Shown here: positions 37,261-57,400 of the stretch, piece after piece | How the letters are laid out: the number at the start of each line of letters is the position of its first letter | Position numbering within the stretch: the first letter of the stretch is position 1 | Assembly (NCBI GenBank): GCA_012295275.1 | Contig: CM022676.1 | Span: 2,666,001 to 2,730,000 of the forward strand | Origin: Chrysomallon squamiferum | Lineage: Eukaryota > Animalia > Mollusca | Direction of reading: 5' to 3' | DNA length: 64,000 bases | The notes under the pieces: model-generated | What the model saw: the letters and a program-made list of their open reading frames with translations, nothing else | What the model was told of the DNA's origin: nothing | Databases searched by the model: none | Position numbers and translations under genes: made by a program

Positions 37261-40200
37261 TTACACGACAAAGAAAATGCTGACTACAACGAGTAACACA
37301 GAAGAGACTACAGCAACGGCAGTTACAGCAGTTTTGTTACATTCACAATCGATGATATTTTCTTTTACAGTCGATGTGACATCTGGCTTGGGAGGCAACG
37401 TTAAATATGTTCATATAATTAATGATTATAAACCAAGTCAGTATCATCCATGATTACATCGAATATACTATCACAATAATTGACTGATATAATTGTTTAG
37501 TCCGTGTATTCAAATTAATTTTCAACTTCAAGGTAAACACAATCAACTTTACTGTAAAGATGTGTTGACAAAATAATTATTTAAGACATTACATACAAGT
37601 GTGTATTATCTATATTTTTATAGCTATCCTCATTATTACATCTAAATCTTATAAATTTAGGAGTAACTGTAAATCTTACTAAGCGGTATAAACCACGAGT
37701 TTCAAACTTGTAAAGTTATCAGCATCAAATAACATAAAATAAAAATATCGTAGTATCTATAATGCAGACTAAAATACAAAAATTTCATATTACTATTAAT
37801 ACCAAGATTTACTTTCAGTGTAAAATAAACATAATGCCTATAAAAAAATATAAAATAATAATAATAAAATTTAAAAATTAAAATGGGAAAATTTACAAAT
37901 ATACTTCCTCGATTGATGAGCTTTTCTGTAATATAAAAACACAAAAAATGTTGAGAAATAAACAATTATGAAAATTATTTTGCTTGCTGAGGTAAATGTT
38001 AAAATATTTATGTTGTAATAGACATTATTGTAAACGATCAAAACACTACACAAATATAAATCTGTCATTTCACAATTATCTTTACCCAATGAATAACACA
38101 GCAATAATTAGAGTGATTTGTATGATATTATTTATACGTCAGCACCAATTGAAATATAATTCTGTATGATCTACTGTCCTGGTACGTTCGAGTTACATTT
38201 TAAACTGAAATGAGTCAGTATTAACATTGTTTACACATAAACAAGACGGTACTTTTCATTTATAAAAAATAAAAATGACATTTAGAAATAAAATAATTAT
38301 TACTTTTATATTGATACAGCATACAAACAAACAGGAAAACAGAAACACATGCAGAAATGCATAGATGAAATGAAACCTGCATACTGCAGAAAGATGCTCA
38401 GCTGCAGAGATTAACAGAAAAATGGAAACCAATTCTAAAACCAAATAAATTGAAATCTTACTTTCAGTATTGATGGTAAAGTTTGCAGAATACAGCTCAT
38501 TATTACCCACAATGCATCTGAACATTCGTGTGTTGTCAGTGAGAGATACAGTGTGATTTAAAACAGAACTTCCTCTGTTCTCACACCCAGATAGTGTAGG
38601 TGGGTCATCTTTGATTCTGTCTGTGTTTGGGTACAGCATCCACTTCATGTCAGCAGCATACTTCCACTGCCACGACCACGACTGTGCTGGGTTACCAACA
38701 TTTCCATTACACCTGAACTCTACAGTTTCACTGATAACATAGGGGCTGAACTCCTTTCTTGGTGTAACGATCATTTCAATTTCACCAGGTTTTGCTGAAA
38801 CAGATAAAAACACGAAGTAAATAAACACTGCTTTTTTTCTGTAATTTAGTTCAATTATATATATATATATATATAGACACAGATAGTTAGACGAAATTTG
38901 TATTATATACAAATATACTTTTTTCGACTAATTTTGAAACGATCATTTCAATTTCACCTGGTTTTGCTGATGTAAAAACACAAAATAAATAAACACTAAT
39001 TTATTCAATATATATATATATATATATATATATATATATATAGACACAGATAGTTAGACGAAATTTGTATTATATACAAATATACTTTTTTCGACTAATT
39101 TTGAAAAGTAATTGTTTGTGTTGAACATTTTCTTTCTCGCTTATTGACTTAGATATTTTTACACAAGTACAAATAACAGACATAAAAAACATGAACATTT
39201 CACTTTATCTGAAATGACATCTTCACTTACTTTCTCTAGTACTGTTCTATAATCAGTAATAAAACAAGTGAATTCACCCAAATACATCAACAACTAATAT
39301 TATATAAAACCAAGTTTTAACTTACATTTGTTGGTAAAGTTATATCATCAACAACAACAGAAATGAAATTCTCTAAATGCACAACAACTCATAAAAATAA
39401 ATCATGTTTTCACTTACTTTGAATGGTGATGTTATCAGAACTTTCAGAGGAATCTGGACTACCATCAAATGTGGTATAACCAATTATACAGATATATTCT
39501 CCTGAATCACTGCAAGTCATTCCTGTCAGTTGAATCTGGACAAAAGATCCTGATTTGTCATTGTTGTCTGACTTTCCTGTAACTGTTGCTCTTGAACCAA
39601 AGTTGTTTACATCTTTTAAAATAGCTTTACCTCCATTTATTACTGACACAGCAGAAGCTATCGAAACATCAGTACTGGAATTGCTGAGAAGTCTTCTCTT
39701 CACTGATAGAGAATTAATTAAATCAACCTGACTGACAATGTTACCAAGACTACATCTGACTGTCACAGGAACTCCTTCATAAACAGGATGTGGGCTGATT
39801 GTCAGTTGTGCGGCTTCACCTGTAAGTAAACATGAACAAAGAAATAACTCAAAAATGTAATAAACGTTTTCAATGTCAATGTTATATATTTCTTAATCTG
39901 CATAATATGTTTTTCATATAAATCAGAAGAAAACATTAATTTTAATTTAATGAGTTTTCTTCCATATTTCAAATATTTCATCACATAATGTACTGAAATT
40001 AAAGAATTTTTTTAAGTTAAATTCATAGAATAAAAGATTAGTAATGTATTTAAATGAATTTAAAGGACCAAATTTGAAAAAAAAAAATTGAAACAATAAT
40101 ATTCTCAAGAGATTATTTAAAATGCAAAAGATTAATAATAGAATAAAAACATTTTTCGAAATAAAATGTAAATAAAAACATAGTATTTGAGATGAAAGTA

Positions 40201-40833
40201 TAATTGACGGGAGTAATATGATTACATTTTCAAACATGCCGATACACTCGGAGAGATAGAGAAAATGACAGACAGACAGACAGAGAGACATAGCCACAAT
40301 ACAAGTAGATTTCATATATATTTCAAAAATAAATTATGTAATGTAACGGTCTGAATGTAGGTATAAATATACTGCAATATCAGTCAGATGACATTGCATG
40401 ATAAAGATAATCAGCTACAAATATAAAACGACCACTCCAGAACTATAAATATATGGCACCCAACACTGCACTTATCCAAACTAAAAATCACTTGTAAACC
40501 CTGTTTATAAAATACTTCCTGGTCTAGTCAAAATGTCTGTGACATACAAGAGTAATACAAGAGTAACAGTCAATGTTAAACTTGAAAACAAAATATAAGA
40601 GACACACCCAGACACACACACACATTACATACAATCAGTTAGATAAAATATAACAATAAATAAAATTAATTTGTTAAACGCATTAATAAAAAAAACAATC
40701 ACTTCCTGTATTTCTCGATAGATCAAAACTGAAGACTTGTATTTAGAGCTAAACAAAAACAAATTAAGTAAAACTCACCAGTTGAAGTCAGTGTTAAACT
40801 TGTTAATAAAATAACAGTGATTACTGTGGACAT
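37261..40833 (-). CDS. Gene 5A: leader + V-like Ig + Ig2 + stalk/hydrophobic C-terminus
   Basis: Exons 40833-40779 (MSTVITVILLTSLTLTST), 39819-39418 (V-like, TVRC..CSDSGEYIC), 38794-38462 (FRCNGNVGNP..WQWK..MFRCIV) and last exon 37412 or 37382 to 37261 (..DCECNKTAVTAVAVVSSVLLVVVSIFFVV*). The homologous last-exon acceptor is AT instead of AG; a cryptic in-frame CAG lies at 37383. Confidence 0.75.
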
Positions 40834-54417: not shown

Positions 54418-57400
54418 AGGTTAAATACATATATAGATTTAGGTATACATATAGATAGAGAGATACATAGATAGATGTAATTACGTGAGAAGTATGTATA
54501 TCTAAGTTATCTATGTATTTATTTATCTGTGCATATATATATCCATATATATATATGTATATTTGGATATATAAGGAAAAATACGAACAGACAGACAGAC
54601 ATGTTGGTAGACTACTGTAGAGAGGAAAAGATAGACAACACTGCTTCACCGTTTCACAGACTTATACGACGAAGAAAACGCTGACTACGACGAGTAACAC
54701 AGAAGAGACTACAGCAACGGCAGTTACAGCAGTTTTGTTACATTCCACATCAGTTGTATTTCCTTTTACAATCGATGACTCAGCAATCTCTGTAGACTTT
54801 GTAGATGGCTTGAAAGATGTTCCTATAATTAATTATTATAAAACAAGTCAATACCATCCATGACTATACTATCACAATAATTGACTCATATAATTGTTTA
54901 GTCCGTGTAGTCAAATTAATTTTCAACTTCAAGGTAAACAAAATCAACTTCACTGTAAAGATGTGTTGACAAAATAATTATTTAAGACGTTACATATATA
55001 GATTGTATTATCTTTATTTTTATAGCTATCCTCATTATTACATCTAAATCTTATAAATTTAGGAGTAACTGTAAAGCTTACTAAGCGGTATAAACCACGA
55101 GTTTCAAACTTGTAAAGTTATCAGCATCAAATAACATAAAATAAAAATATCGTAGTATCTATAATGCAGACTAAAAATACAAAAATTTCATATTACTATT
55201 AATACCAACACTTACTTTCAGTGTAAAATAAACACAATGCCTATGAAAAAAAACCCACATAAATAAATAAATAAAAATTACAAATTAACATGGGAAAATT
55301 TACAAATATACTACCTGGTTTGATGAGCTTTTCTGTAATATAAAAACACAAAAAGTGTTGAGAAATAAACGATTATGAAAAATATTTTACTTGCTGAGGT
55401 AAATGTTAAAATATTTATGTTGTAATAGACATTATTGTGCACGGTCAACACACTACAAAAATATAAATCCGTCATTTCACAATTATCTTTACCCGATGAA
55501 TAACACAGCAATAATTAGATTGATTCATATGATATTATTTATACGTCAGCACCAATTGAAATCTAATTCTTTATGATCTATTGTGCTGGTACGTTCGAGT
55601 TACATTTTAAACTGAAATGAGTCAGTATTAACATTGTTTATACATAAACAAGACGGTACTTTTCATTTATAAAAAATAAAAATGAGATTTACAAATAAAA
55701 TAATTATTACTTTTATATTGATACAGCACACAAACAAACAGGAAAACAGAAACACATGCAGAAGTGCATAGATGAAATGAAAACTGCATACTGCAGAAAG
55801 ATGCTTAGCTGCAGTGATTAACAGAAAAATGGAAAGAAAGTAACGTTGAGTGCAGTGCTAATACACTGACTGTTCATAGTTTGTGTTTCAACACATCAAG
55901 CAGCCTATTCGTGTTGGGTGACTGAAAGATAATAAATCATTATTTACGTAATCCAATAAGCTGGCTTCTACAAGAAATGACAAAACATGGAATTTAACAA
56001 ATTAAAACAGGACATAACATCAACATGATGGCTGTCATTTTCTTCCGTTAAATCATTTCAATTCAGTTGCCTTCTTAAAACAGTGTTGTTATACGTTACA
56101 CATAACAATGGTTTGCTCATACAGCAATGATTTTCATTCTAAAACCAAATAAATTGAAATCTTACTTTCAGTATTGATGGTAAAGTTTGCAGAATACAAC
56201 TCAGTATTACCCACAATGCATCTGAACATTCGTGCGTTGTCAGTGAGAGATACAGTGTGATTTAAAACAGAACTTCCTCTGTTCTCACACCCAGATAGTG
56301 TAGGTGGGTCATCTTTGATTCTGTCTGTGTTTGGGTACGGCATCCACTTCATGTCAGCAGCGTACTTCCACTGCCACGACCACGACTGTGCTGGGTTACC
56401 AACATTTCCATTACACCTGAACTCTACAGTTTCACTGACATCATAGGGGTTGATCTCCTTTCTTGGTGTAACGATCATTTCGATTTCACCTGGTTTTGCT
56501 GAAATATAAAAACACGAAATAAATAAACACTGCTTTTTTCTATAATTTAGTTCAATTATATATATATAGACAGTTAGATACTTAGACGAAATTTGTATTA
56601 TATACAAATATACTTTTTTCGACTAATTTTGAAAAGTAATTGTTTCTGTTGAACATTTTCTTTCTCGCTTATTGACTTAGATATTTTTACACAAGTACAA
56701 ATAACAGACATAAAACAGATGAACATTTCCCTTATCTGAAATGGCATCTTCACTTACTTTCTCTAGTAATGTTCTATAATCAGTAATAAAACAAGTGAAT
56801 TCACCCAAATACAACAACTAATATTATATAAAACCAAGTTTTAACTTACTTTCGTTAGTAATGTTATATAATCAACAACAACAGATATGAAATTCTCCAA
56901 ATGCACGACAACTCATAAAAATAAATGAAGTTTTCACTTACTTAGAATGGTGATGTTATCAGAACTTTCAGAGGTATCTGGATTACCAGCAAGTGTGTTA
57001 TAACCAATTACACATAAATATTCTCCTGAATCACTGCAAGTCATTCCTGTCAGTTGAATCTGGATGAAAGATCCTGATTTGTCATTGTTGTCAGACTTTC
57101 CTGTCACTGTCGCTCTAGATCCAAAGTTGTTTACATCTTTTAAAACAGCTTTACCTCCATTCTTTAGAGTGATAGCAGAAGCTATGGTAACCGTAGTACT
57201 GCGATTGCTGAGAAGTCTTCTGCTTACTGATACAGAAGTAAGTATATCAACCTCACTGATAATGTTACCAAGACTACATTTGACTGTCACGGGAACTTCT
57301 TCATAAACAGGACGTGGGCTGATTGTCAGTTGTGCGGCTTCACCTGTAAGTAAACATGTACAAAGAAATAACTCAAAAATGTAGTAAACGTTTCCATTGT

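What the first reader, a model, noticed from the sequence alone, without database searches (positions are those of the whole stretch)
39418..57343. CDR-like hypervariability between the duplicated V domains of genes 5A and 5B
Seen (manual count): V exons 39819-39418 and 57343-56942 differ at about 27 of 134 residues, against about 7 of 110 in the adjacent Ig2 exons, while introns look near-identical. Changes cluster in three patches: after Cys1 (VSQVDLINSLSVK vs ISEVDILTSVSVS), the C'-C'' region (SSTDVSIASAVSVI vs RSTTVTIASAITLK) and after Cys2 (YTTFDGSPDS vs YNTLAGNPDT). A 26-residue stretch (LKDVNNFGSRATVTGKSDNNDKSGSF) is identical. Inference: diversifying selection or gene conversion on one ligand-binding face, as in antigen receptors, Alr domain 1 or FREP IgSF domains.
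Basis: partly seen in the sequence, partly recalled or inferred. Interest (0 to 1): 0.8.

Follow-up and report, generated by a model that had tools for sequence, protein, structure and literature searches.

The report
Snail V-domain paralogs: older exon island
Two neighbouring copies of an uncharacterised snail-type immunoglobulin gene differ most in their V-domain exon, but silent and protein-changing differences are raised together there, so this exon is likely an older patch in a duplication otherwise evened out by gene conversion, and antibody-like diversifying selection is not shown.

Summary
The V exons (39819-39418, 57343-56942, minus strand) differ at 27 of 133 whole codons and the Ig2 exons at 7 of 110. 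The three patches and the identical 26-residue stretch are as quoted. The introns are not near-identical: they differ by 5-9%.

RNA contigs confirm that both genes are spliced as leader, V-set, Ig2 and tail exon. Relatives were found only as uncharacterised gastropod proteins.

The selection reading fails its own test. V dN/dS is 0.52-0.82 by four methods, against 0.45-0.61 for Ig2. V has about four times more of both kinds of change (ML dN 0.103 vs 0.029, dS 0.186 vs 0.047; fourfold sites 7/53 vs 1/40). An intron window just upstream is nearly as divergent (42/402 vs 44/402). V divergence (10.9%) matches the Ig2 distance to a third, pseudogene copy (9.0%).

The differences do sit on one side of the fold: 21 of 27 fall on CDR-equivalent loops and GFCC'C'' strands. 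But these are the columns that vary across the whole family, and the replacements are mostly conservative.

Most likely the V exon is an older island in a gene-conversion mosaic. Selection that keeps the V domains apart is possible but unproven. Interest is modest.

The parts
39418..39819 (-). Gene A V-set exon (phase 1-1, 402 nt)
   Evidence: Canonical AG/GT sites. RNA contig joints 38794>39418 and 39819>43133 in X2. AF2 pLDDT 94.1 with V-set strands. Foldseek top hits are VHH domains. Pfam V-set match is below threshold, 17.6 bits against a cut-off of 26.
56942..57343 (-). Gene B V-set exon
   Evidence: Same splice sites as in A. Joint 56498>56942 in X7. Pfam V-set 20.8 bits, below the cut-off of 26.
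38462..38794 (-). Gene A Ig2 exon (333 nt, phase 1-1)
   Evidence: Boundaries. Joints at both ends in RNA contigs. Weak Pfam Ig_2 match.
56166..56498 (-). Gene B Ig2 exon
   Evidence: Joint 56498>56942 in X7.
43133..43187 (-). Gene A distal leader exon (MSTVITVILLTSSTLTST, then G of a split codon)
   Evidence: Scan for ATG, a hydrophobic run and a phase-1 GT donor. Joint 39819>43133 in X2; the same contig also fits gene B.
40779..40833 (-). Gene A proximal copy of the leader exon
   Evidence: No joint to it was seen.
58356..58410 (-). Gene B distal leader exon
   Evidence: Joint 57343>58356 in X2, from the same contig that fits gene A.
58128..58182 (-). Gene B proximal copy of the leader exon
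37261..37412 (-). Gene A tail exon: stalk plus a C-terminal hydrophobic run ending in a stop. The assembly reads AT where B has the AG acceptor.
   Evidence: ORF. Joint 37411/37412>38461/38462 in X7. Acceptor letters.
54662..54822 (-). Gene B tail exon (stalk, hydrophobic run, stop)
   Evidence: The X3 joint 54822>56942 skips Ig2.
35417..35466 (-). Alternative terminal coding exon of gene A. It gives a short tail with no hydrophobic run, so a predicted secreted form.
   Evidence: The X2 loose end at 38462 matches 35437-35466 at 30/30 letters. Acceptor and reading frame.
39418..40457 (-). Island of raised A-B divergence: the V exon plus proximal intron 1
   Evidence: V exon has 44/402 mismatches. 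The most divergent noncoding 402-column window, 40457-40056, has 42/402 against a mean of 20.
43396..43660 (-). 265-bp run identical between A and B, upstream of the distal leader
   Evidence: It exceeds the 99.9th percentile (191 bp) of 2000 permutations.
45987..46316 (-). Third Ig2 copy with an in-frame stop (pseudogene), 9.0% from both A and B
52130..52273 (-). Truncated V-like pseudo-exon (55% identity over 49 aa)

Best explanation
Genes A and B are two expressed tandem paralogs, 17.5 kb apart, of an uncharacterised IgSF family found so far only in gastropods, and their V exon with the adjoining part of intron 1 is likely an older patch in a duplication whose remaining parts were kept or made alike by gene conversion.

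Shown directly:
- The exon structure is leader, V-set, Ig2 and tail.
- Both genes are spliced in RNA contigs.
- The V exon has about four times the divergence of Ig2 at silent and replacement sites alike.
- The differences lie on the CDR-equivalent loops and the GFCC'C'' sheet.

Inferred:
- Either the V region escaped homogenisation, or it was imported from another family member.
- Within that older exon, amino-acid changes built up where the fold and the family tolerate them, while the C''-D-E core stayed under strong purifying selection.

Predicted, untested: the proteins are surface or secreted receptors. They have a leader peptide and either a C-terminal hydrophobic tail or a short tail without one.
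For: - Rates: V dN/dS is 0.82, 0.77, 0.52 and 0.56 by NG86, LWL85, YN00 and ML. Ig2 gives 0.45, 0.59, 0.58 and 0.61. ML dN is 0.103 vs 0.029 and dS 0.186 vs 0.047. Fourfold sites differ at 7/53 vs 1/40.
- V synonymous differences (12 of about 95 sites) exceed the noncoding rate of 228/4374 (P=0.0045).
- 6 of the 12 synonymous differences lie in the stretch with no amino-acid change.
- The island is not confined to the exon. Intron window 40457-40056 has 42/402 mismatches against 44/402 in V.
- Noncoding divergence is over-dispersed (index 2.39, P=5e-7).
- A 265-bp identical run exceeds the 99.9th percentile of permutations (all).
- In Ig2, A-B differ by 3.3%, but A-C and B-C (pseudogene copy at 46 kb) by 9.0% each. 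The V split (10.9%) therefore looks as old as the split from C.
- The differences track family-wide freedom to vary: mean column entropy 2.62 vs 1.96 bits, P=6e-5, over 124 usable columns.
- The replacements are conservative: mean BLOSUM62 +0.74 against an expected -0.3 to -0.5 (P<=4.5e-4); 10 of 27 are V/I/L swaps.
- ABED strands plus other loops show dN/dS 0.28.
- Splice joints are seen for both genes.
- The pattern of high divergence in one part of a gene pair under conversion is described in PMC3924837 (passages read).
Against: - Against the two adjacent introns alone, the V synonymous excess is not significant (P=0.076).
- Part of the divergent intron window is a TC microsatellite and lies near indels, so some of its mismatches may come from the alignment.
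- On the CDR plus GFCC'C'' partition dN/dS is 1.68, and pN of 0.177 exceeds the noncoding rate (P=1.7e-7). This is what selection for difference would also give.
- The 265-bp identical run could be a conserved promoter rather than a conversion tract.
- Only two sequences were compared. No outgroup or population sample was available, so neither the direction nor the timing of any conversion is shown.
- The whole genome was not available, so no donor copy could be sought.
Confidence: 0.58

Rival explanations
1. Diversifying or divergence-maintaining selection on the CDR-like and GFCC'C'' face. The two V domains would bind different ligands, and selection would reject conversion tracts that erase the difference.
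For: - 21 of 27 differences lie on 62 residues of loops plus the GFCC'C'' sheet (P=4e-4).
- Partition dN/dS is 1.68 there against 0.28 elsewhere.
- pN there is 0.177, against 0.052 noncoding (P=1.7e-7) and 0.075 in adjacent introns (P=1.8e-4).
- The V exon has the highest divergence of any 402-column window.
- PMC3924837 describes such peaks, for example exon 5 of the red and green opsins, as a signature of selection against conversion (passages read). In that model linked silent sites diverge too, so the raised dS does not exclude it.
Against: - Whole-exon dN/dS is 0.52-0.82 and not above that of Ig2 by ML or YN00.
- N versus S on the partition is not significant (P=0.36).
- The replacements are significantly conservative, and 10 of 27 are V/I/L swaps.
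- The same columns vary in the whole family.
- An intron window is almost as divergent.
- The stalk-coding part of the tail exon is even more divergent, 28/152.
- Contigs identical to A's V exon occur in runs from three samples of two studies: X2 over 349 nt, X1 over 202 nt, and X7 over 228 nt with 6 gaps. That gives no sign of extreme allelic diversity, although contigs drop rare variants.
Confidence: 0.22
2. A single duplication of uniform age with no conversion. The V exon would simply evolve faster through relaxed constraint and local differences in mutation rate.
For: The loops and outer sheet of a V-set domain are generally the least constrained parts (established knowledge). The differences fall in family-variable columns.
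Against: - Relaxed constraint cannot raise silent-site divergence. Fourfold sites differ at 7/53 in V against 1/40 in Ig2, and dS is 0.14-0.19 against 0.05-0.06.
- Noncoding divergence is over-dispersed (P=5e-7), and there is a 265-bp identical run.
- V divergence equals the distance to the older C copy.
Confidence: 0.1
3. Assembly artefact: A and B are two haplotypes of one locus laid in tandem, so the differences are allelic.
For: Many contigs of 90-99% likeness map here, and read variants often carry the other copy's letter: 5 of 9 listed places in B and 2 of 4 in A's V exon.
Against: - The copies have different structures. A has about 2.3 kb between its leader copies where B has 228 bp. 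B has a 300-bp insert after Ig2, and A a 172-bp tandem repeat.
- Unique genes and pseudogene pieces lie between the copies.
- A-type and B-type V contigs occur together in X2 and in X7.
- Depth could not be used because all runs are contigs.
Confidence: 0.05

Closest known systems
Uncharacterised gastropod proteins with V plus Ig2 modules (Gigantopelta aegis XP_041373743.1, XP_041376960.1, XP_041373404.1; Patella vulgata XP_055958859.1)
   Same: Same module order, V-set then Ig2, and the same conserved core R-A-T-V-T-G-K-x-D-x-x-D-K-x-G-S-F and D-S-G-x-Y-x-C. V identity is 32-42% over most of the domain, and 52% for XP_041373404.1 over a 62-residue stretch.
   Different: None is named or studied. 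Some carry two or three V or V-Ig2 repeats or long serine/threonine-rich linkers. The window's genes are single V-Ig2 units with alternative tails.
Red/green opsin exon 5 and other 'peaks of divergence' in duplicates under gene conversion (Teshima and Innan model, as reviewed in PMC3924837)
   Same: Tandem duplicates tens of kb apart, similar overall, with one exon standing out in divergence at silent and replacement sites (paper passages).
   Different: Here the flanks are 5% apart rather than nearly identical. A neighbouring intron stretch is as divergent as the exon. No functional difference between the copies is known.
Vertebrate V-set domains of the pIgR and VH type
   Same: Predicted fold with C' and C'' strands. 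Cys22-Cys110, R76 and D104-x-G-x-Y-x-C are kept. The profile hits pIgR domains at E=1.5e-10. Foldseek matches VHH domains at TM 0.58-0.71.
   Different: No tryptophan occurs anywhere in the domain, so the canonical C-strand Trp is absent. No FGxG J motif is present. There is no sign of rearrangement. Pfam V-set scores are below the gathering cut-off.
Biomphalaria FREPs and Hydractinia Alr
   Same: Invertebrate IgSF genes in clusters with variable N-terminal Ig domains (recalled; the listed papers PMC7588048 and PMC9546547 were seen only in search listings).
   Different: No fibrinogen domain was found in these genes or in the window ORFs scanned. Alr is cnidarian, and its variability is allelic. 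Here the contrast is between paralogs, and identical A contigs recur across samples.

Membership tests
Immunoglobulin V-set domain | Two-sheet Ig fold with extra C' and C'' strands | tested here: met
   AF2 model: pLDDT 94.1, pTM 0.87, strands A, B, C, C', C'', D, E, F, G. At least 500 Foldseek matches at E<=0.001, the top ones VHH domains.
Immunoglobulin V-set domain | Pfam PF07686 match above the gathering score | tested here: not met
   17.6 bits for A and 20.8 bits for B, against a cut-off of 26.
Immunoglobulin V-set domain | Intradomain Cys pair, D-x-G-x-Y-x-C motif, and Arg/Asp pair at the D strand and the E-F turn | tested here: met
   C22, C110, D104, Y108 and R76 are present, and most are nearly invariant in the 18-row alignment.
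Immunoglobulin V-set domain | Conserved Trp in strand C | tested here: not met
   No W occurs in either V exon translation. The alignment has no conserved W column.
Rearranging or VJ-type antigen-receptor V domain | J-like FGxG motif in strand G and recombination signals | tested here: not met
   The G-strand region reads PDSSESSDNITIQ (A) and PDTSESSDNITIL (B), with no FGxG. The domain is one germline exon, spliced conventionally. Recombination signals were not searched for.
FREP (fibrinogen-related protein) | C-terminal fibrinogen domain after the IgSF domain(s) | tested here: not met
   The gene ends in a hydrophobic tail exon or a short alternative tail. No fibrinogen family appeared among the Pfam hits of the 17 window translations scanned. 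Only ORFs of 70 aa or more that I picked were scanned.
Positively selected (diversifying) recognition domain | dN/dS above 1, or dN above the neutral rate with dS not raised | tested here: not met
   Whole-exon dN/dS is 0.52-0.82. The partition value of 1.68 is not significant (P=0.36). dS is raised along with dN.
Duplicates under gene conversion with a divergence peak | Mosaic divergence: significantly uneven mismatch density, identical tracts and a local peak | tested here: met
   Dispersion index 2.39 (P=5e-7). A 265-bp identical run exceeds the 99.9th percentile. The V exon has the maximum of all 402-column windows.
Duplicates under gene conversion with a divergence peak | [quoted passage not shown] | not testable with these tools
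   No genome of this or a sister species is held. Only contigs of public runs were available.

The most novel reading that the evidence does not exclude
A gastropod-only family of small V-Ig2 receptors keeps a germline repertoire of different V domains. Selection against homogenisation would hold the CDR-like and GFCC'C'' face of neighbouring paralogs apart while gene conversion evens out everything else. Alternative tails would give secreted and membrane-bound forms of each specificity.
Probability: 0.2. Interest if true: 0.6.

Novelty: new member of a known kind. Interest (0 to 1): 0.3.

Why it matters
If the V exons were kept apart by selection, this would be a germline-diversified recognition family in molluscs that does not belong to the FREPs, and so worth an immunologist's attention. 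As the evidence stands, it is an ordinary outcome of birth-and-death evolution with patchy gene conversion in an IgSF cluster.

Two useful products remain:
- An RNA-supported gene model for an unstudied gastropod V-Ig2 family, with alternative leaders and tails.
- A worked example showing that a contrast in amino-acid differences between exons can reflect unequal age rather than unequal selection.

Tried and rejected
- The first translations used the wrong frame, because the exons are phase 1. I corrected them to 39419-39817 and 56943-57341.
- The word-index protein search for longer relatives scored nothing among 617 candidates. The full HMMER scan then found 34 relatives.
- No whole genome is held for this window. 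The family could not be counted, and no donor copy could be sought.
- Earlier notes of this scan: none exist for this genome.
Solvent exposure and 3-D clustering could not be computed, so only strand and sheet topology was used.
- Contig data could not give depth, allele frequencies or a full list of variants. The tables were cut (189 and 30 rows not shown). I therefore made no estimate of polymorphism in V against the rest.
- Two loose-end sequences (at 57328 and 54666) have no match in the window. I read them as a third, B-like paralog outside the window and could not follow them.
- Literature searches for this family gave only general IgSF, FREP and Alr papers. One scaly-foot snail paper (passages) mentions immunoglobulin-domain families only in general terms. 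I saw no description of this V-Ig2 family in those searches.
- I considered a homodimer prediction for the V domain and did not run it, because no claim of binding is made.

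
Full report
**What is there**

The window is AT-rich (GC 0.24-0.37 in 2-kb bins), and no whole genome is held for it.

They are bounded by TTACAG|G acceptors and AAA|GTAAGT donors, as phase 1-1 exons of 402 nt.

A self-comparison shows a segmental duplication. About 37206-45940 (copy A) matches about 54607-61190 (copy B), with several insertions and deletions.

I derived a gene model for each copy.

| Exon | Gene A | Gene B |
|---|---|---|
| Distal leader | 43187-43133 | 58410-58356 |
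| Proximal leader copy | 40833-40779 | 58182-58128 |
| V exon | 39819-39418 | 57343-56942 |
| Ig2 exon (333 nt) | 38794-38462 | 56498-56166 |
| Tail exon | 37412-37261 | 54822-54662 |

- The leader exon encodes MSTVITVILLTS(L/S)TLTST plus one base of a split codon, and it is present twice per gene.
- The tail exon encodes a short stalk and a C-terminal hydrophobic run that ends at the stop.

**RNA support**

Contigs of public runs, with coded names, carry the following joints:
- V to Ig2: 38794>39418 in X2 and 56498>56942 in X7.
- V to the distal leader: 39819>43133 and 57343>58356. This is one X2 contig that fits both genes.
- Ig2 to the tail exon in A: 37411/12>38461/62 in X7.
- V joined directly to the tail exon in B, skipping Ig2: 54822>56942 in X3.

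One X2 contig joins A's Ig2 exon to 35466. There a short tail with no hydrophobic run ends in a stop, which predicts a secreted isoform.

All these runs are contigs, so they say nothing about expression level or depth.

**What family**

- Pfam gives only sub-threshold V-set and Ig_2 matches.
- A full HMMER scan of 1.84 billion representatives found 34 proteins at E<=0.001, the best at 37% identity.
- Of the 10 proteins looked up, 7 are 'uncharacterized' or loosely named proteins of the gastropods Gigantopelta aegis and Patella vulgata. One is a bacterial Ig-like repeat protein, and two are unnamed.
- Several of them have the same order, V then Ig2.
- The 18-row alignment shows a conserved core, R-A-T-V-T-G-K-x-D-x-x-D-x-x-G-S-F plus D-S-G-x-Y-x-C, and no conserved Trp.
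- AlphaFold2 with that alignment gives a confident V-set fold (pLDDT 94.1, pTM 0.87).
- Foldseek matches VHH domains at TM 0.58-0.71 among the rows listed.
- The sequence profile hits pIgR domains at E=1.5e-10.
- The window also holds broken family pieces: a truncated V exon at 52273-52130; Ig2 copies with stops at 46316-45987 and 51952-51689; fragments at 53296-53177 and 63434-63634; and an intact but divergent Ig2-like exon at 46637-46975 on the plus strand.

**Checking the observation**

- V: 27 of 133 whole codons differ (44/399 nt). Ig2: 7 of 110 (11/330 nt).
- The quoted patches and the identical 26-residue stretch are exact.
- Clustering along the sequence is modestly significant (P=0.037 and 0.025).
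- The statement about introns does not hold. Aligned introns differ by 5.4-8.75%, and the four noncoding regions summed differ by 5.2% (228/4374).

**The selection test**

| Measure | V exon | Ig2 exon |
|---|---|---|
| dN/dS, NG86 | 0.82 | 0.45 |
| dN/dS, LWL85 | 0.77 | 0.59 |
| dN/dS, YN00 | 0.52 | 0.58 |
| dN/dS, ML | 0.56 | 0.61 |
| dN (ML) | 0.103 | 0.029 |
| dS (ML) | 0.186 | 0.047 |
| Fourfold sites differing | 7/53 | 1/40 |

- The V/Ig2 contrast is therefore about a fourfold difference in depth at both classes of site. It is not a difference in the mode of selection.
- V synonymous differences exceed the noncoding rate (P=0.0045). Against the two adjacent introns alone the excess is not significant (P=0.076).
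- Six of the 12 synonymous differences lie inside the 26 codons that show no amino-acid change. That stretch is therefore old and strongly constrained, not recently converted. It is also the family-wide conserved core.

**Where the differences sit**

I partitioned the domain by the model's secondary structure and the known V-set topology.

| Partition | Residues differing | dN/dS |
|---|---|---|
| CDR-equivalent loops (25-30, 58-63, 117-120) | 8/16 | 1.86 |
| GFCC'C'' strands | 13/46 | 1.60 |
| ABED strands | 2/26 | 0.21 |
| Other loops | 4/45 | 0.33 |

- Loops plus GFCC'C'' against the rest gives P=4e-4.
- dN/dS is 1.68 on that partition (N against S not significant, P=0.36) and 0.28 on the rest (P=0.023).
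- The 'one face' idea thus holds topologically.

Two findings weaken a paratope-like reading:
- The replacements are more conservative than random nonsynonymous changes. Mean BLOSUM62 is +0.74 against an expected -0.3 to -0.5 (P<=4.5e-4), and 10 of 27 are V/I/L swaps.
- They fall in the columns that vary across the whole gastropod family (entropy 2.62 vs 1.96 bits, P=6e-5).

**Mosaic history**

- Noncoding divergence is over-dispersed: the index is 2.39 over 46 windows of 100 columns (P=5e-7).
- A 265-bp identical run (43660-43396) exceeds the 99.9th percentile of permutations.
- No noncoding 402-column window reaches the V exon's 44 mismatches. But the window 40457-40056, in intron 1 just upstream, reaches 42. 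Part of that window is a TC microsatellite, and part lies near indels.
- The stalk-coding part of the tail exon is more divergent still (28/152, with indels).
- In Ig2, A-B differ by 3.3%, while A and B each differ by 9.0% from the pseudogene copy at 46 kb. That is close to the 10.9% between the V exons.

I conclude that the V exon and the adjoining intron form an older island in a pair whose other parts are younger or were homogenised.

PMC3924837 describes exactly this kind of pattern for duplicates under gene conversion (passages read). It notes that a divergence peak can mark a site where selection rejects conversion. This keeps the selection reading alive as a rival, but it is not shown here.

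**Other copies and alleles**

- Read variants often carry the other copy's letter or that of the 46-kb pseudogene: 7 of 7 listed Ig2 variants in A equal the pseudogene's letters. This is cross-mapping of short contigs or exchange between copies, and I cannot tell which.
- Loose ends at 57328 and 54666, seen in three or four runs, have no match in the window. They point to at least one more expressed B-like paralog elsewhere.
- Contigs identical to A's V exon occur in X1, X2 and X7, which come from three samples of two studies. X2 is identical over 349 nt, X1 over 202 nt, and X7 over 228 nt with 6 gaps. I therefore see no sign of extreme allelic diversity, though contigs hide rare variants.

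**Verdict**

The best-supported account is unequal age caused by patchy gene conversion, with ordinary constraint shaping where amino acids change. Diversifying selection is neither shown nor excluded. The family itself is unstudied, but it is of a familiar kind.

Noticed in passing
window 37411-37416 (minus strand) vs 54822-54826: Where gene B has a canonical AG acceptor before the tail exon, gene A reads AT in this assembly. Even so, one X7 RNA contig joins Ig2 to this very place. It may come from another allele or paralog.
   Followed up: partly
window 40779-40833, 43133-43187, 58128-58182, 58356-58410: Each gene carries two copies of the leader exon, 2.35 kb apart in A and 228 bp apart in B. 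Only the distal one was seen joined to V.
   Followed up: partly
window 35417-35466 (minus strand): An alternative terminal exon is joined to A's Ig2 exon in an X2 contig. It encodes a 16-residue tail without a hydrophobic run, so a secreted isoform is predicted.
   Followed up: partly
window 54822>56942 (joint, run X3): One contig joins B's V exon directly to the tail exon and skips Ig2. The phases are compatible, so a V-only isoform is possible.
   Followed up: no
loose ends at window 57328 and 54666 (runs X2, X3, X7, X8): Contigs at least 95% like B's V exon and tail exon run on into sequence absent from the window. One has a different start of the V exon. The other continues past the stop position, which would add a cytoplasmic tail. 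This points to a third, expressed B-like paralog elsewhere.
   Followed up: partly
window 12156-16640 and 27794-28730 (minus strand): Exons of other IgSF genes with Ig_3, I-set, C2-set_2 and fibronectin type III matches lie here, so the whole window is an IgSF-rich region.
   Followed up: partly
window 46616-46990 and 47640-47958 (plus strand): There is an intact but divergent Ig2-like exon (48% identity to A's). It is followed by two similar exons, each with a hydrophobic transmembrane-like run. This looks like a family member on the opposite strand between A and B.
   Followed up: no
window 38763-39106: A 172-bp tandem duplication in A's intron 2 copies the Ig2 acceptor region and the first codons of the exon (KPGEIEMIV...). 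It is absent from B.
   Followed up: no
window 33159-33374 (minus strand): An open frame holds a transmembrane-like run followed by RRGRW. It has no Pfam match, and its gene was not identified.
   Followed up: no
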